DNA from: a virus
Taxonomy: Duplodnaviria > Heunggongvirae > Uroviricota > Caudoviricetes
Virus record (IMG/VR): IMGVR_UViG_2778261151_000016
Coordinates: 1-16,033 of that record
Strand: one strand, 5' to 3'
Length of the DNA stretch: 16,033 bases
Shown: positions 1 through 6,000 of the stretch, piece after piece
Layout: each line of letters begins with the position of its first letter
Numbering within the stretch: position 1 is the stretch's first letter
Made by a program: the position numbers

Positions 1-3000
1 GTCACCCCGGCGTCCGCGGAAGATGAACAGATGCCCGGAGAACGGGTCATCCTTCAGGACGTTCTGAACTTTTGATGCCAGGCCGTTAAAACCATTTCGC
101 ATGTCGGTGATACCGGCAACCAGCCAGATACGCGAACCGGCAGGGAGAGATATCATCAGTGGCTGCTCCCTTTCATTTCGCGGATAAGTGTCTGTAATAA
201 CGCCGGTGTCAGTTCACCTTTCAGCCTGAGAGTTCCGGCCGACAGAACCAGCTCACAGCACAGACTGTCGGGCATCTGTTCAGGTATCTGCACTGGTGCC
301 GGGATTTTATTATCCGGCTCCGGAGTTAACGTCACGGGAAGTAGCGATGTTTCATGTTCGCCGGTCGGCTGCAGGCCGCCGTTACGCCAGAGATGCCGCC
401 AGTTAAAGAGCAGGTTATCGTTGATTCCGTTCTCACGAGCTATTTGTGCGACACAGGCACCGGGTAAAAGAGTTTGCTGAACAAGTCTCCATTTAAACTC
501 CGGTGAAAATCGGTTCCGGCGGTTTTTCTCTGTTTTCACAGTCTGAGTTACTGTCGGGGCTGAAGGGTATCGCCCCGGGAACAAAGCCCGGGCCAGTTGC
601 ACGCAGGAATATTCCCCGGAAAGAGGCCAGTCAGTGAATACCTGGTGAAATCGCCTCACCAGAGAAAAAATGGCGGTTTTGCTGATACCGGTCTGCGCAG
701 AAATGCGCGGGTACGACAGTGACTCGTCAAATCTCAGTTGTAGCACACGCAGGATCAATTCCGGATTGTCTGCCAGTACCGCTTTTCGTGCATTCATCTT
801 AAATGTCCCTTTACTGCGAAAATGGACATTAGTATCGGAAACAGGAAAGGGAGGCGAAAGACGGTTTAAATGAGACGGTTACCCCCCAAATAAAAAGGCC
901 TGCGATTACCAGCAGGCCTGTTATTAGCTCAGTGATGTAGATGGTCATTTAATACTCCGTCACGTTTTCCTGTCGCCACGCCTCGTCATATTCCGATTTC
1001 GGCATATTGGCGATGTAGCTATATGGCGATCCTGATTCAAGTTGCAGGAACTGGTGCGATTGCTCGTCAAGGAACAACGGGACACCACCTTCCCAACCTT
1101 CGCCGTTACGTTGTTTTTCAAGCATCAAAACAGATGCCGGAGATGCCAGTAGCTGTTCGTCCTTCTCTGACATCTTTTCACCACTCTGAACTCTCTGTAA
1201 CGCTCTCTCGCGAGCCTTGTTACGCCAGATGATGAAAAGGTTGTCTGTCAGGTCTGTTATCGCTCCAGAGCCTTTTACGTCCATTTTCCCGGTTGGTTTT
1301 TCTTCGCTGTCTCCTTTTCGCGAGTGAGTAACGAGAATGACGTGGGAGTTTGTTTTGTTTTTGAAGTCGCAAATCGAGTCAACAAACGCCTTCTGCCCGT
1401 TATAGTCATCGTCGCCTATGCCACATTTCATCAGGCTGTCGATGATGAATAACTGGATCCCGTATCGGCGGCGAGCGTAGTCGAATATTTCGATCAGCCT
1501 GTCGGCTTTCGCCGTTCCGGTCAGGCCAAACACCCAAAGTCTTTCGTCATAAAATTTAAATGCAGAGTCAATTTCCAGCACTGGCGGCATCTTGCAGCAC
1601 GTTGCCTGACGGGTAAGTCGCTTAAGGAGAATACCAGGCTTCAGCTCAAGTGACGCGATGCACGTCTTCACACCCTGACGCATTGCCTCAAGTGCCATAT
1701 GCCCGACAACCTCGGTGTTATGCGTCGCCACATATCCCCTGGTTACATACAGGTGGCGAGGGTGATCGACCATAATACACAAGCATTCTGCATTGCCGAT
1801 TTTTTCAACATTCCTGACGAATACCCCACAGCCCTCGAATCGATGCGCAGTTAATCTGCCATTGAGTCGTGGTGAACGGATGGCCTCCCTGATTTCTCTT
1901 GTCAGTCTGATTCTTGCCTCGTATGAATCCATCCCATGCCGCTTATCGTCCTTGTATGTGTATGTCACGCCAGTTTTAACTCGCGTCCGGCATGACCCGC
2001 CGAGTGAGTTAACCAGTTGAACAACCCCATTGCGCAGTTCTTCACTTGCTGAGGAAAAAACAAGCGTTCCATCCTTCTCGACATACCCATCCGTTTCAAG
2101 CAGACCACACAGCATGCCTATACGCGTTGATTTATTTGCGGAAAAAAACACACGAGGGATGAATTTGTTTTTTGCTGTGCACCCCATTAGTCCATAACCT
2201 CGCAGGGTCTCCATGAGTGGATTTACCTGACCACGCGCCGTTGATATCAGCCAGTCCTTACCATCTCCAGAGAAGTTGTAATCAGGCAGTTCAGCCTTCA
2301 TACGCTCGATCATGTATGGCTCGACGTTTGAAAACTTCACGCTCCCATTGCTAAGACTACCATCCCCGAGAAGGGAGCCGATAACCCATGCTAATAGCTC
2401 TGAGTGGTCGCCAAAGTCACCAGTTATTTCAGGAATCCTAACGCCATTTTTGTGCCTCTTCGTTTCACTCAACCGCTTCAACCCGAAGGTATCTATCACG
2501 CGGCGTTTCTCGCCTTTCGTGAATCCACGACTAGTGACCTCCCATAGGTGATCGCCTGCGCAATCAACATAACGACCATCTTCAAATGTGACTCGGTAAA
2601 CATCTCTAACACCCTGCGGGAATATCCCAGTGACAGTTGACGGATTGCCGTCTACTGACGCCACCTGATCGCCAATTTTTACATTCCCGTGAGTAGTCCA
2701 TGTCCCATCAGCTAAAAGAATAGGCTCATTCAGTGGGCATGCCTTTCCGTGACCGTTCACACCATTGACCAGCGTCAACTCTGCCTCACGGAACTGGAAT
2801 TTATCTGCCAGAGATTCCCACGGTGGATTAAACAGATACTGCTGCTTGCCGTAGAAAGCGTTGATAGTGTCCTGGTAAAACTCTCGCGCACTGTAGAGTT
2901 CTTCAGGATCGAAGTAGGATGCCGTGCCGATGTACTGCCAGATTTCATCCTCGGTAACACCGTTCATCAGGCATTCGTTGATGTCTTTGTACGGCAGAGT

Positions 3001-6000
3001 AACAAGACGGCAACGATGTTCACCGAGTCGGCTTGCGATTTCCCTTGCGGCTTCACGACCAACATCATCAACGTCCATCGAGATGAATATTTCCTCAAAC
3101 CTGTCGAGGTTGTGATACTCAAACTCAATCCACTGTTGCTTAGCGCCTTTCCCGCCACCAAACGGCACGGATAACGCCGAGATGCCGTATTGCGCATAGC
3201 TCATACAATCAATTTCGCCTTCGCAAAGCACAACCGCCCTCACGCCAGCGTCCAGAGCCTGCCATCCGAACAGGCAAGGTTCGCAATCACCTTCTGCCAT
3301 AATGACTTTCTTCCCGTCCGGGCGCTCAGTGCTGATTCGCTTGACCTGCAACAACTCACCATCGCGTTTGTACGGAAGCACCAGAGCATCCAGTTCTCGT
3401 TCTCCATTCCACACCTTGCCGCTGACAACCTCGTAGCGCTTTACGACTTCTGGCGATATGCCACGCGATTGCAGGTACTCAAGATGGGATTCTGTTCTGG
3501 TAACGTAGTGGGCGATTTTCTTGCGATCAGGTCTGGAGAATTTCTTCTCACGTTTGGCATCGAAATGGTGATCGTCATCCTTGATACCGAGAAATGCTTT
3601 CGCTTCCTGCATAGCCTGATGCAGGTTAATTCCACGACATGCCATCCACAAATCAAGCATGTCACCGCCGTCTCCCTCAGCGAAATCAGCCCATTTTTTC
3701 TTACCGCTAAGGTTGACCTTAAGGCTGTTTCCCTTGTCACCGTTGACGTTACCGGCAACCCACTCATGCCCCTCTTTCTTGCCGTTTGGCAACAGGTGCG
3801 GAGCCACCCTGTCAACCTGCGCCCAAAGCAGGTCGCTAAGTTCTGATGGACTCATACTTTAACCGTCCTGAATCGCATTCTGACGCAATATTTTTTTATC
3901 CCGTTATTTTCCCGTCAGACCGTCGTTTATCGCGCTACAGCGCGTCTGATGGCGTTTAAACGCCATTGACGGAGCTAATGGCTGCTGAGGTCGAGATTTT
4001 TAAACCAGAAATCGACAAACGAAATACTTAACCAGCCGTGGTTATAACCAGCGACCAGTAGCGATTTGATTTTTGATTTCATGGTTCACCTGTCGAAAAA
4101 CACGTAGCCAGTTTTCGATACGGTAATTGCGGATGATGGTCTGGATTGTGGTTGAATGGTTTCTGGCTTCTCGTCGTTCCAGCGCTGACCGTTCAGGTAG
4201 CTCGACGGTAACAACCTGTCGAATCCGAACTGCTTACCATTCCTGCATGCAATATCGTCTGCCAGCATCGTGGCAAACTCGCTTGCCGTACCCCTGGTAG
4301 TTTTACGCCATTCCCTGAACTGTGTTCTGAATGCCGAAGCTGCGTTTTTCTTCCCGGCTTTCCGCATGCCTGCACACCAGAATATTTCCTCGAATGCCTT
4401 GTCGGTTTCTTCGTGACGGTCAGGAGTTTTTTCACACTCCGTTCGGACATGTTCGAACATAATGTTTTTAGGTTCATTGACTGGTTCAAAAGAGTGATAG
4501 GTTCTGGGGGCAGCTCCTGCCCCACCTGATTCTGGTGGGATTTGTTGTGCATTATCCAGCGTCAGATAAAAAACGTTTGACTGGTTAAGCTCTCCTTTTC
4601 TTCTGCATTCCCTTTTCAAAAGCCCCATCTCTTCCAGTGCCCTAATGTGACTTTTTACTGTCGATCTGCTCACCTCACACTGGTCAGCGACATGTTGATA
4701 TGAAGGCCAGCATTCGCCATTATCATTGGCGTTATCGGCAAGTTTAATCAGAATCAGTTTTCTCAGTGGGTTGCCAACCTTTATATTCATGGCCTTAGCC
4801 ATAAGATTCATGCTCATTTTGACTTCTCCGAAGTTTTGTACCTGTTAAGTATTTCTCTCAGTGGCACAGCTATTGCTGGATTAACCCCCTGATAAAACTG
4901 GTCACGTAGCACATCTTTTCGGTGATTAACGCGTTTATTTTCCTGCGTTTTTCGCATATAATTACCTCGTTGGATGTTATTAAAATTCCATCTGGATTTG
5001 TTCAGAACGCTCGGTCTTGCACACCGGGCGTTTTTTATTGGTGAGTCCATCAATCGCATACTTAAAAGCCCTGCTAATCGGACTGATGTCTGATGCCATT
5101 CCGAAAGCACACAAGACCGAAGCAATAAACCTCCAGTCCGTTCTGCTTATCTTCGATTCATGACAGCCAATCATCTTTGCCAGACCGCGCTGGGTAAGCG
5201 TTGACAGGTTGATGAGTAAATCTGTTTCTGCACGATCAACGTCGCGCTGTGATAGTTTGCTGTAACTTGTTTGTTCCATTTCTTAAGATTTCCAATAGTG
5301 AATAGTTAGTTGAAAGCTATGCGTGGAAACGCATATGGCCTTAGTTGGTCAGATATCTTGGGGCTCGCTTTGTCAGCGACGTAGGACGAATGCCCATTGT
5401 GAAAATAGCGGTGTTACTTATGCTGCCTGATTCGGTTTTGGAAACAGGTGTGGTAAATCTGGGCGAATTTCGTAAGCCTTGATCTGCCCTCCAGTGGCGT
5501 TAACGATGGCGGTAACTTTCTCTGGAGAAACCTGCCCGCCTTTCAGCCATTTGTGTACTGCTGGCTGCGTTACACCACACTTGTCGGCAAGCCGCTTTTG
5601 ACTACCGACAATCTTCAAGGCTCGTTGAATTACTAAATTCATGAGCATACCTCTTTCAGCCATTACTTATAACCAAGGATAACTCAAGTTATAAAAGATA
5701 GCAATAACCTTTATTATTTTACTTTGGATAACCGTAGTTATAGATTTGTGGATATGAAAACATTCGCAGAAAGACTAAATGCAGCCATGAGATCGGCAGG
5801 GGTGTCGCAATCACAGCTTGCGGACATGGTTGGAATATCTCAGCCAGCCATACAGAAGATGTCATCCGGTAAAACAAACGGATCTCGCAAGATGGTTGAG
5901 TTAGCTAATGCTTTAAAAGTACGCCCTGAATGGCTTAGTTCTGGTATTGGTGAAATGAGGGATGGTACACATGAAGAACCATCCAATATCCGTGAGTCAT

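What the first reader, a model, noticed from the sequence alone, without database searches (positions are those of the whole stretch)
949..4817. Replication module is non-lambda: HTH initiator plus T7 gp4-style primase/helicase
Although int, xis, Red, kil and cIII are lambda-like, the genes after cII are not lambda O/P. They are a winged-HTH initiator (4086..4817) and a single-polypeptide primase/helicase, an arrangement that would make replication independent of host DnaB and DnaG. Together with the P22-type N/nut and a distinct immunity region, this shows multiple mosaic junctions within 16 kb.
Basis: partly seen in the sequence, partly recalled or inferred. Interest (0 to 1): 0.4.

Follow-up and report, generated by a model that had tools for sequence, protein, structure and literature searches.

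The report
Stx-phage primase-helicase gene with intein
This prophage replaces lambda's O/P genes with an HTH initiator and a T7 gp4-like primase-helicase whose ATP-binding loop is split by a self-splicing class 3 intein, and both the module and the intein have already been published for Shiga-toxin phages.

Summary
The two ORFs are real and at the stated coordinates.

- **Initiator (4086..4817, minus strand):** a 243-aa protein with an HTH_36 domain. A 19-bp dyad-symmetric candidate origin repeat lies inside its own gene.
- **Large ORF (949..3855, minus strand):** 968 aa, homologous to T7 gp4 and Twinkle (E about 1e-23). The match covers a Toprim domain and a superfamily-4 (SF4) helicase domain.

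One third of the large ORF (residues 372-713, window 1717..2742) is a 342-aa intein with a LAGLIDADG homing endonuclease. It sits inside the Walker A motif (GVNGHGK|T). An intein-free allele that is 98% identical (phage mEp043 gp55, 626 aa) fixes the boundaries exactly.

**Intein class.** It has every sequence mark of a class 3 intein: Ala1, Trp at B:12, Cys at F:4, Thr at G:5, a terminal His-Asn, and Thr+1. The helicase can therefore work only after protein splicing.

**Other difference from T7 gp4.** The N-terminus lacks the gp4 Cys4 zinc site.

**Prior work.** The module is 98% identical to phages phi24B, Min27 and Stx2a_F403. The phi24B P intein was reported in 2012. The module was classified as replication type "Eru5" in 2022.

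Independence from host DnaB and DnaG remains an inference. Verdict: real, ordinary, already known.

The parts
4086..4817 (-). O-like replication initiator gene (243 aa). It has an N-terminal winged-HTH (HTH_36) domain, a short Gly/Ala linker and a C-terminal module.
   Evidence: ORF. Pfam HTH_36 at E 6.7e-14. PHROG replication-initiation families phrog_270, 4617, 8540 and 391. PGAP annotates the same start in a relative.
4533..4817 (-). Coding region for initiator residues 1-95, the presumed origin-specific DNA-binding domain.
   Evidence: HTH_36 covers residues 17-67. In 110 IMG/VR contigs that carry the 19-bp repeat, nearly every contig with enough flanking DNA also encodes this domain type, whichever C-terminal module and helicase follow.
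4508..4526 (-). Single copy of the 19-bp dyad-symmetric repeat GGTGGGGCAGGAGCTGCCC in the linker-coding part of the initiator gene. It is a candidate origin iteron.
   Evidence: There is 1 copy in the window and 0 expected by chance. Min27 and an E. coli prophage have 3 copies, and phiKp_30 has at least 6. Among 97 uncut arrays the copy number is 1-6 and the spacing is 21 or 24 bp. Binding was not tested.
4441..4458 (.). Palindrome GTTCGGACATGTTCGAAC next to a moderately A+T-rich stretch, just downstream of the repeat. It may be part of the origin.
   Evidence: Its position mirrors the lambda ori layout of iterons, an AT-rich stretch and a palindrome (own knowledge). Inference only.
4089..4469 (-). 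Coding region for initiator residues 117-243. This C-terminal module is inherited together with the primase-helicase and is the presumed helicase-recruiting domain.
   Evidence: It is nearly identical in mEp043 gp54, whose N-terminus is the unrelated Phage_rep_O type. It matches phrog_33384. It has no Pfam or PDB match.
3856..4085 (-). 230-bp spacer between the initiator and primase-helicase genes. It is conserved in relatives and contains hairpins and a 35-aa ORF (4081..3974).
   Evidence: Sequence read. RNA fold z-score is -2.6. The stretch lies inside the roughly 98%-identical match to mEp043 and Sf101. No gene is annotated here in relatives. Function unknown.
949..3855 (-). Precursor gene (968 aa): N-extein, class 3 intein, then C-extein of a gp4-like primase-helicase.
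2743..3855 (-). N-extein, residues 1-371. It contains a DnaG-like N-terminal region without zinc ligands, the Toprim primase core (residues 209-296, window 2968..3231), and the start of the helicase domain up to Walker A GVNGHGK.
   Evidence: TIGR01391 dnaG matches residues 26-143 at E 9e-10. Toprim_2 hit. The Toprim Glu (EGE), DxD and D(x)NE residues align with T7 gp4. The only Cys in residues 1-100 is C73.
1717..2742 (-). Class 3 intein, residues 372-713 (342 aa). Key residues are Ala1 (A372), block B His436 and Trp438, block F Cys693, block G Thr711-His712-Asn713, followed by Thr714 (+1).
   Evidence: The boundaries are exact from alignment with the intein-free allele mEp043 gp55. The best PDB matches are the class 3 DnaB inteins 6rix, 6riy and 6bs8, with W, C and THN aligned. 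Homologues in DnaB and PhoH ATPases all start with Ala directly after the P-loop GK.
2080..2394 (-). Homing-endonuclease core inside the intein. It has two LAGLIDADG motifs: LAWVIGSLLGDGS (residues 488-500, Asp498) and RIGMLCGLLETDGYV (residues 578-592, Asp589).
   Evidence: Pfam LAGLIDADG_3 at E 1.6e-7, and Hom_end. The motifs align with both motifs of PI-SceI.
952..1716 (-). C-extein, residues 714-968. It starts with the Walker A Thr and carries the remaining SF4 helicase motifs: H1a (ASLE), Walker B (LFIIDS), H3 (THSRK) and H4 (KGSGAITD).
   Evidence: Alignment with T7 gp4. AAA_25 and DnaB_C hits on the spliced sequence.
896..919 (-). Terminator-like GC-rich hairpin followed by a T run, 30 bp after the primase-helicase stop codon.
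   Evidence: This is a consensus match only.
1..883 (.). End of an IS66-family element (tnpA plus the start of tnpB), inserted 65 bp downstream of the primase-helicase gene. In relatives the next annotated gene downstream is ninB or a small hypothetical ORF. It marks the edge of the module but is not part of it.
   Evidence: It is 99-100% identical to IS66-like copies in E. coli. HTH_Tnp_1 and phrog_2422 hits. No complete E. coli genome has this junction.

Best explanation
This is the 'Eru5'-type replication module of phi24B/Min27-like Shiga-toxin phages. It sits in a lambdoid prophage downstream of cII. The proposed mechanism has four steps, and all four are inferred rather than shown.

1. 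The 243-aa initiator binds, through its N-terminal winged HTH, the 19-bp dyad repeat that lies in the linker-coding part of its own gene. This is a lambda-O-like layout.
2. Its C-terminal module, which is always inherited with the downstream gene, recruits the phage's own replicative enzyme.
3. That enzyme is made as a 968-aa precursor. A 342-aa class 3 intein sits between Lys371 and Thr714 of the helicase Walker A motif, so the precursor should not be able to bind or hydrolyse ATP as a helicase. By analogy with the class 3 mechanism established for the mycobacteriophage Bethlehem DnaB intein, splicing would run as follows. Cys693 (block F:4) attacks the Lys371-Ala372 bond. The N-extein passes to Thr714. 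Asn713 cyclises. A 626-aa protein with the intact motif GVNGHGKT is released.
4. The spliced protein is a T7 gp4/Twinkle-type hexameric SF4 helicase fused to a Toprim primase. It would unwind and prime phage DNA without a lambda-P-type loader, and probably without host DnaB and DnaG.

The intein's LAGLIDADG endonuclease explains why otherwise 98%-identical genes exist with and without the insert. It is a mobile, homing-type element.
For: Identity of the module:
- It is 98.3-98.7% identical in DNA over 96% of 900..5300 to Stx2_16002, Min27, Stx2a_F403/F451, phi24B and phiXuzhou21.
- Stx2a_F403 is the published Eru5 representative, described as an HTH_36 protein plus a primase.
- phi24B P (968 aa) was published with TOPRIM and GP4d_helicase domains and an intein.

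Homology to gp4:
- phmmer E 2.7e-23 to T7 gp4 over residues 192-539 of the intein-free form, with catalytic Toprim and helicase motifs aligned. Twinkle scores E 6.5e-14.
- It matches phrog_239 'DNA primase/helicase' at E 1.9e-171.

Intein:
- An exact 342-residue insertion relative to mEp043 gp55, placed as GHGK|...|TEVV.
- Hint and LAGLIDADG_3 hits.
- The best PDB hits are class 3 inteins, with the WCT residues aligned.
- The class definition comes from Tori et al. 2010.
- Four homologues in other P-loop ATPases begin with Ala directly after GK, and the two whose C-terminal junction is present in the retrieved protein end THN|T.
- Against the phiKp_30 copy the intein shows 18 synonymous and 9 non-synonymous codon changes, which indicates purifying selection.
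- Presence/absence polymorphism: intein DNA is in 79 of 5426 complete E. coli genomes, and the uninterrupted site is in 209.

Initiator and origin:
- Two-module structure with a mosaic joint.
- The repeat array has 1-6 copies at 21 or 24-bp spacing and goes with the HTH_36-type N-domain wherever the contig holds enough flanking DNA, whichever helicase follows.

No lambda-P-like or DnaC-like loader gene lies between cII and the IS66 end.
Against: - No activity was tested here, and none was found in the literature searched. That covers splicing, endonuclease, primase, helicase and initiator binding. Smith et al. 2012 state that the intein's function had not been determined experimentally.
- The window has only one copy of the presumed iteron, against 2-6 in most relatives. 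An IS66 element is inserted right next to the module. This particular prophage copy could therefore be replication-defective.
- The N-terminus lacks the Cys4 zinc site that T7 gp4 needs for templated priming, so primase function is less certain than helicase function.
- Pfam DnaB_C is below its gathering score even after in-silico splicing.
Confidence: 0.85

Rival explanations
1. The 968-aa ORF is an ordinary, uninterrupted T7 gp4-style primase-helicase polypeptide that works as translated.
For: Toprim and AAA/DnaB-type hits lie on one ORF, and the ORF is homologous to T7 gp4.
Against: Residues 372-713 are absent from the 98%-identical mEp043 gp55. The insert splits the Walker A motif GxxGxGK|T. 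It carries Hint and LAGLIDADG domains and matches solved inteins. An ATPase with 342 residues inside its P-loop is not expected to be active, as argued for P-loop inteins in PMC6195587.
Confidence: 0.03
2. The intein is a standard class 1 intein that starts at Cys373. Ala372 would then belong to the extein.
For: A Cys sits at the second inserted position, and class 1 inteins normally start with Cys or Ser.
Against: - The intein-free allele reads GHGK-TEVV with no Ala, so a Cys373 start would leave an extra residue inside Walker A.
- Homologous inteins in DnaB and PhoH start with Ala after GK and have Met, Gln or Ile at position 2, so Cys2 is not conserved.
- The class 3 WCT triplet is complete and aligns with solved class 3 inteins.
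Confidence: 0.04
3. In this particular prophage the module is a decaying remnant. The intein no longer splices or the origin no longer fires, so the region does nothing.
For: The window has one iteron copy where close relatives have three, a 45-bp in-frame deletion. An IS66-family element lies 65 bp downstream. Truncated copies of this intein exist in E. coli and Shigella flexneri genomes and were noted as partial inteins in Tori et al. 2010.
Against: - Both ORFs are full length and have the same length as phi24B P (968 aa).
- All catalytic residues of the intein, endonuclease, Toprim and helicase are intact.
- Single-copy arrays occur in 16 of 97 uncut viral contigs, so one copy is a common state.
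- The IS lies outside both genes.
Confidence: 0.12
4. The protein acts only as a helicase. The zinc-less Toprim half is not a working primase, and host DnaG still primes.
For: The first 100 residues have no Cys4 or CHC2 ligands. From own knowledge, the T7 gp4 form lacking the zinc domain cannot make templated primers, and metazoan Twinkle lacks primase activity.
Against: The Toprim catalytic Glu, DxD and D(x)NE residues are all conserved against T7 gp4. The N-extein shows 15 synonymous and 1 non-synonymous codon change against phiKp_30, which indicates strong constraint. The N-terminal region still matches the DnaG model at E 9e-10.
Confidence: 0.2

Closest known systems
P and O of Stx phages phi24B (vB_EcoP_24B), Min27 and Stx2a_F403. 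This is the 'Eru5' replication region of Fagerlund et al. 2022 (PMC8951638). The intein in P was noted by Smith et al. 2012 (PMC3430580).
   Same: 98.3% DNA identity over the whole module. The precursor has the same 968-aa length, the intein starts at the same residue 372, and the HTH_36 initiator is the same.
   Different: The window has one 19-bp repeat where Min27 has three. An IS66 element follows the gene. The published intein span (372-702) is shorter than the exact span found here (372-713). The papers I could read do not assign the intein to class 3.
Bacteriophage T7 gp4 primase-helicase and mitochondrial Twinkle
   Same: The order is the same: a Toprim primase core followed by an SF4 RecA-type helicase on one chain. 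Catalytic Toprim residues and helicase motifs H1, H1a, H2, H3 and H4 align (E about 1e-23).
   Different: There is no Cys4 zinc-binding domain. An intein sits in Walker A. The enzyme is paired with an origin-binding initiator in a temperate lambdoid phage. Pfam DnaB_C scores below its threshold.
Class 3 inteins: mycobacteriophage Bethlehem DnaB intein (Tori et al. 2010), M. smegmatis DnaBi1 (6bs8) and M. chimaera DnaB intein (6rix)
   Same: A non-nucleophilic first residue, the WCT triplet at B:12, F:4 and G:5, His-Asn at the C-terminus, Thr+1, and insertion in a helicase P-loop. His65 and Trp67 have the same numbering as in the Bethlehem intein, and the size is almost the same (342 against 341 aa).
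   Different: The host protein is a gp4-like primase-helicase of an enterobacterial prophage. Block B position 7 is Ala rather than Asp. Position 2 is Cys. It retains a full LAGLIDADG endonuclease, unlike the solved mini-inteins.
Lambda O protein and ori-lambda
   Same: It is a two-domain initiator. The origin repeats lie inside its own coding sequence between the two domains. The repeats are 19 bp, dyad-symmetric and spaced by about two helical turns. The N-domain and repeats exchange as one unit, and the C-domain and partner gene exchange as another. The lambda details are from own knowledge.
   Different: The N-domain is HTH_36, not Phage_rep_O. The partner is a primase-helicase, not the DnaB-hijacking lambda P. 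There is only one repeat copy in this window.
DnaB-type helicase with a related intein in other Stx2a phages (Stx2_EH1965 group)
   Same: A 50%-identical class 3 intein with endonuclease sits at the same GK|TE position of Walker A.
   Different: The host protein is a non-orthologous DnaB_N plus DnaB_C helicase (797 aa), paired with a Phage_rep_O initiator.

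Membership tests
Class 3 inteins (Tori et al. 2010) | First intein residue is not Cys, Ser or Thr. | tested here: met
   The insert begins with Ala372, by alignment with the intein-free allele. Homologues in other ATPases also begin with Ala after GK.
Class 3 inteins (Tori et al. 2010) | WCT triplet: Trp at block B:12, Cys at block F:4 and Thr at block G:5. | tested here: met
   W438, C693 and T711 are present. They align residue for residue with the class 3 intein 6rix (HqW; rCveVDnpaHLY; vpTHN).
Class 3 inteins (Tori et al. 2010) | [quoted passage not shown] | tested here: met
   The sequence reads ...THN713 | T714.
Class 3 inteins (Tori et al. 2010) | Splicing through a block F Cys branched thioester intermediate. 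| not testable with these tools
   This needs expression, mutagenesis (C693A/S) and detection of the intermediate.
LAGLIDADG homing endonucleases (two-motif, intein-borne, PI-SceI type) | Two LAGLIDADG motifs, each ending in a catalytic acidic residue. | tested here: met
   LLGDG (Asp498) and LLETDG (Asp589) align with both PI-SceI motifs.
LAGLIDADG homing endonucleases (two-motif, intein-borne, PI-SceI type) | Cleaves the intein-free allele and drives homing. | not testable with these tools
   The only indirect evidence is that alleles with and without the insert coexist at 98% extein identity.
T7 gp4 / Twinkle primase-helicases (SF4) | Toprim primase core with a conserved Glu and DxD. | tested here: met
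   CEGEID, DVDD and KDINE align with T7 gp4 EGEID, DMDE and KDANE. Toprim_2 scores E 3e-12.
T7 gp4 / Twinkle primase-helicases (SF4) | C-terminal SF4 helicase domain with motifs H1, H1a, H2, H3 and H4. | tested here: met
   All five motifs align with gp4 once the intein is removed. AAA_25 scores 27.9 bits against a cut-off of 27. DnaB_C scores only 23.8 bits against a cut-off of 27.
T7 gp4 / Twinkle primase-helicases (SF4) | N-terminal Cys4 zinc-binding domain used for template recognition. | tested here: not met
   Residues 1-100 contain a single Cys (C73). The region still resembles the DnaG N-terminus (TIGR01391 E 9e-10), but the ligand positions are Ala, Asp and Glu.
T7 gp4 / Twinkle primase-helicases (SF4) | Primase and helicase activities, and independence from host DnaB/DnaG. 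| not testable with these tools
   No experiment on this protein family turned up in the literature searches.
Lambda-type O/P replication module | Initiator with the Phage_rep_O N-domain, partnered with a lambda-P-type DnaB loader. | tested here: not met
   The N-domain is HTH_36 and there is no Phage_rep_O hit. The next gene is a primase-helicase.
Lambda-type O/P replication module | Array of origin repeats inside the initiator gene, bound by the initiator. | tested here: inconclusive
   The repeat lies inside the gene and goes with the N-domain type in the viral contigs that carry it. The window has only one copy, and binding was not tested.
Eru5 replication region of Stx phages (Fagerlund et al. 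2022) | An HTH_36 protein followed by a primase gene next to the cI/cro/cII region, matching the representative AP012529.1. | tested here: met
   98.3% identity over 96% of 900..5300 to AP012529.1.

The most novel reading that the evidence does not exclude
The class 3 intein may be more than a passenger. It could act as a conditional switch on Stx-phage replication. Its initiating nucleophile Cys693 lies in the splicing blocks alongside three other cysteines (Cys373, Cys432 and Cys691). Oxidative stress could trap the precursor by a disulfide, as shown for the class 3 DnaBi1 intein of M. smegmatis (PMC6195587). That would delay helicase maturation, and with it phage DNA amplification and Shiga-toxin gene dosage, until reducing conditions return. 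A related intein at the same P-loop position of a different helicase in other Stx2a phages would fit selection for such control. It fits plain homing equally well.
Probability: 0.1. Interest if true: 0.6.

Novelty: already known. Interest (0 to 1): 0.2.

Why it matters
[quoted passage not shown] This window is one more copy of the Eru5 type. Its only unusual feature is that the phage's replicative helicase must be assembled by protein splicing, which is rare in enterobacteria. The practical lesson for annotation is that the 968-aa 'toprim domain-containing protein' is a precursor. The mature enzyme is 626 aa, and the P-loop is restored only after a class 3 intein is removed. If splicing were conditional, it would add a post-translational checkpoint to Stx-phage replication, but nothing here shows that.

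Tried and rejected
- **Repeat searches inside the window.** Generic repeat and tandem-repeat searches of 3700..5450 found no iteron array. The candidate iteron only showed up by comparison with relatives that carry 3-6 copies.
- **Promoter and terminator scans.** These gave numbers no better than shuffled sequence. The one clean hit was the hairpin after the primase-helicase gene.
- **Intein search in the 5.8-billion-protein set.** It returned only 6 proteins. That was enough to show Ala1 conservation but not to build a deep alignment.
- **Scan of species-representative genomes.** It found only two loci, both with truncated inteins.
- **Initiator against the PDB.** There were no significant matches, so the fold of its C-terminal module stays unknown.
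- **Rfam.** It found nothing in 949..4817.
- **Papers not available.** Tori & Perler 2011 (PMC3133030) is not held. The supplementary intein list of Tori et al. 2010 is not held. I therefore could not confirm that this exact intein was already listed as class 3.
- **Structure prediction.** I skipped it. The sequence matches to gp4 (E about 1e-23) and to solved class 3 inteins already settle the domain assignments, and the tool returns no inter-atomic distances.
- **A class 1 intein starting at Cys373.** I considered this and rejected it; see the rival explanations.

Full report
**1. What is in the sequence**

On the minus strand, the window reads downstream from cI (5724..6461, plus strand) and cro (5418..5663). 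The genes in order are:
- cII (4980..5279; Pfam Phage_CII, E 9e-35)
- a 48-aa DUF2740-like ORF (4814..4960)
- a 243-aa ORF (4086..4817)
- a 230-bp spacer
- a 968-aa ORF (949..3855)

The coordinates given in the finding are therefore correct.

PHROG matches to the right of cI cover an N-like antiterminator, Kil, Bet, an exonuclease and an integrase. Rfam also finds the lambda cIII thermoregulator. Together these confirm a lambdoid early region.

**2. The initiator and a candidate origin**

The 243-aa protein has an HTH_36 winged-helix domain (E 6.7e-14, residues 17-67) and matches several PHROG 'replication initiation' families. It is built from two exchangeable modules.

- **C-terminal module.** The last ~128 residues (117-243) are nearly identical to the C-terminus of phage mEp043 gp54. 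The N-terminus of gp54 is the unrelated Phage_rep_O type.
- **DNA homology.** The roughly 98%-identical match between the window and mEp043 or Sf101 runs from the primase-helicase gene, through the spacer, and stops inside the initiator gene at about 4470.
- **Inference.** The C-terminal module travels with the downstream enzyme, so it is the likely recruiting domain.

Between the two modules, the relatives Min27 and an E. coli prophage carry three copies of the 19-bp dyad-symmetric sequence GGTGGGGCAGGAGCTGCCC. Phage phiKp_30 carries at least six. The window has one copy, at 4508..4526, because of a 45-bp in-frame deletion.

A scan of IMG/VR found the repeat in 110 contigs. Nearly every contig with enough flanking DNA also encodes an HTH_36-type N-domain that is 71-100% identical to this one, whether or not the C-module and primase-helicase are present. 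Among 97 arrays not cut by a contig end:

| Copies | 1 | 2 | 3 | 4 | 5 | 6 |
|---|---|---|---|---|---|---|
| Arrays | 16 | 33 | 26 | 14 | 7 | 1 |

The spacing is 21 or 24 bp, or sums of these.

This is the lambda ori logic, with iterons inside the initiator gene that co-vary with its DNA-binding domain. Binding itself is inferred, not shown.

**3. The large ORF is a precursor with an intein**

Pfam on the raw ORF gives Toprim_2 (residues 209-296) and a weak AAA_25 hit at the C-terminus. It also gives LAGLIDADG_3, Hom_end_hint and Hom_end hits in the middle.

Alignment with mEp043 gp55 (626 aa, 99% identical) shows one clean 342-residue insertion. It covers residues 372-713, placed as GVNGHGK | ACPLNEP...YVATHN | TEVVGHM.

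The insert therefore lies inside the Walker A motif GxxGxGK|T. In T7 gp4 the aligned sequence is GSGMGKST. In window coordinates the intein is 1717..2742.

**4. It is a class 3 intein**

Tori et al. 2010 define class 3 inteins by these features, and note that most sit in helicase P-loops:
- a non-nucleophilic first residue
- a Trp/Cys/Thr triplet at block B:12, F:4 and G:5
- Ser or Thr at +1

The window's intein has Ala372 as residue 1, His436 and Trp438 in block B, Cys693 in block F, Thr711-His712-Asn713 in block G, and Thr714 at +1.

Its best matches among solved structures are the class 3 DnaB inteins 6rix and 6riy (M. chimaera) and 6bs8 (M. smegmatis DnaBi1). The Trp, Cys and THN residues align.

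Homologues recovered from the protein database sit in DnaB-type and PhoH-type ATPases:
- All begin with Ala directly after the P-loop GK.
- Position 2 is variable (Cys, Met, Gln or Ile).
- Where the C-terminal junction is present in the retrieved protein, they end THN|T.

This rules out a class 1 intein starting at Cys373.

Both LAGLIDADG motifs keep their acidic residues (Asp498 and Asp589) and align with PI-SceI.

Against the phiKp_30 copy, the intein shows 18 synonymous and 9 non-synonymous codon changes. The exteins show 19 and 1. The intein is under purifying selection, though weaker than the selection on the enzyme.

**5. The spliced protein is gp4-like**

Without the insert, the protein gives these matches:

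| Target | Result |
|---|---|
| T7 gp4 structures (5ikn, 6n7i, 1q57) | E 3e-21 to 3e-23, residues 192-539 |
| Twinkle | E 6.5e-14 |
| Pfam Toprim_2 | E 3e-12 |
| Pfam AAA_25 | 27.9 bits (cut-off 27) |
| Pfam DnaB_C | 23.8 bits (cut-off 27), nearly end to end |
| phrog_239 'DNA primase/helicase' | E 1.9e-171 |

The Toprim Glu, DxD and D(x)NE residues and helicase motifs H1, H1a, H2, H3 and H4 are conserved against gp4.

One defining gp4 feature is absent. The first 100 residues contain a single Cys, so there is no Cys4 zinc site. The region still resembles the DnaG N-terminus (TIGR01391, E 9e-10). Helicase function is therefore a safer inference than primase function.

**6. Distribution**

- The intein DNA is present in 79 of 5426 complete E. 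coli genomes, always at 99% identity or more.
- A 600-bp probe across the empty site finds the gene in 290 genomes, and the site is uninterrupted in 209.
- In IMG/VR contigs, alleles both with and without the intein occur next to the same initiator.
- Truncated copies (residues 1-241) occur in the E. coli and Shigella flexneri species representatives. This agrees with the 'partial' Shigella prophage primase inteins mentioned by Tori et al..
- About 49 other Stx2a phages carry a 50%-identical class 3 intein at the same GK|TE position of a non-orthologous DnaB-type helicase (797 aa), paired with a Phage_rep_O initiator.

**7. What is already published**

- The module is 98.3-98.7% identical to Stx2_16002, Min27, Stx2a_F403/F451, phi24B and phiXuzhou21.
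- Smith et al. 2012 described phi24B P as a 968-aa protein with TOPRIM_primase and GP4d_helicase domains and an intein at residues 372-702. They noted that its function was untested.
- Llarena et al. 2021 and Fagerlund et al. 2022 classified non-lambda replication regions of Stx phages. Stx2a_F403 is the representative of type Eru5, an HTH_36 protein plus a primase.
- The finding is therefore real but known. What I add is modest: the exact intein boundaries, the class 3 assignment, the missing zinc site, the modular initiator and the candidate iteron.

**8. Mechanism: what is shown and what is inferred**

Shown by sequence:
- the domain content
- the intein position and class signature
- the presence/absence polymorphism
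- the association of the repeat with the initiator N-domain
- the co-inheritance of the initiator C-module with the enzyme

Inferred:
- The initiator binds the repeat.
- It recruits the enzyme through its C-module.
- The precursor is ATPase-dead until Cys693-initiated splicing restores GVNGHGKT.
- The spliced hexamer unwinds and primes without lambda P, host DnaB or host DnaG.
- The endonuclease mediates homing.

The viability of phi24B, which is an infective phage according to PMC3430580, argues indirectly that splicing works, provided P is essential.

**9. State of this copy**

Window 1..883 is the end of an IS66-family element. It is inserted 65 bp beyond the stop codon, just after a terminator-like hairpin at 896..919. 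None of the complete E. coli genomes has this junction. Together with the single repeat copy, this leaves about a one-in-eight chance that this prophage's module is no longer functional, even though both genes are intact.

**10. Verdict**

The domain assignments are right, but the intein and the missing zinc site were overlooked, and host independence is untested.
- Novelty: already known.
- Interest: low, 0.2.
- The most novel reading still open is conditional, for example redox-gated, splicing that controls Stx-phage replication. This is by analogy with M. smegmatis DnaBi1. I put its probability at about 0.1.

Noticed in passing
window 1-883: This is the end of an IS66-family element (tnpA 156..797 on the minus strand, plus the start of tnpB). 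It is 99-100% identical to copies in E. coli chromosomes and plasmids. It is inserted 65 bp downstream of the primase-helicase gene; in relatives the next annotated gene downstream is ninB or a small hypothetical ORF. No complete E. coli genome in the collection has this junction.
   Followed up: partly
window 4508-4526, compared with L001:5945-6005 and L004:11792-11852: The window has a 45-bp in-frame deletion in the Gly/Ala linker of the initiator. It removes two of the three 19-bp repeats seen in Min27 and an E. coli prophage. Across viral contigs the copy number ranges from 1 to 6.
   Followed up: yes
L117:2898-5291 (Stx2a-converting phage Stx2_EH1965, LC616032.1): About 49 other Stx2a phages carry a 50%-identical class 3 intein with a LAGLIDADG endonuclease. 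It sits at the same GK|TE position of Walker A, but in a DnaB-type helicase (797 aa) that follows a Phage_rep_O initiator. This suggests that the intein family moves between non-orthologous helicases.
   Followed up: partly
L115:3001-3723 and L116:3001-3723 (E. coli ECMA0423, Shigella flexneri SFBU1023); also L013 and L018: These loci carry truncated copies of the same intein. The genome copies keep only residues 1-241. This is consistent with the 'partial' Shigella prophage primase inteins mentioned by Tori et al. 2010.
   Followed up: no
L001 (Min27, NC_010237.1) 2505-5413 and 5631-6299: In the Min27 record the primase-helicase is annotated as two CDS ('P' plus 'DNA primase'). Its O protein diverges from the window's after residue ~120 through a frameshift. 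These are probably sequencing or annotation artefacts, or real frameshifts.
   Followed up: no
window 3856-4085: This 230-bp spacer between the initiator and primase-helicase genes is conserved. It contains hairpins (GGCGTTTAAACGCC, GCGCTGTAGCGC), has an RNA fold z-score of -2.6, and holds an unannotated 35-aa ORF (4081..3974).
   Followed up: partly
window 13928-14017 (+): Rfam match to sRNA-Xcc1 (64.5 bits, gathering score 53), lying between the antirepressor-like gene and the integrase region.
   Followed up: no
window 9751-9809 (+): Rfam match to the lambda cIII thermoregulator element (88.5 bits), which confirms a lambda-type cIII leader.
   Followed up: no
window 6499-7563 (+): Between cI and the N-like gene lie a DUF3024 protein (6499..6840) and a 177-aa protein of unknown function (7030..7563, phrog_2602). 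A related E. coli prophage has rexA at the equivalent position after cI.
   Followed up: no
window 2740-2745 and 1714-1719: The codons on either side of the intein differ synonymously from the empty site of mEp043. AAG and ACC replace AAA and ACG.
   Followed up: partly
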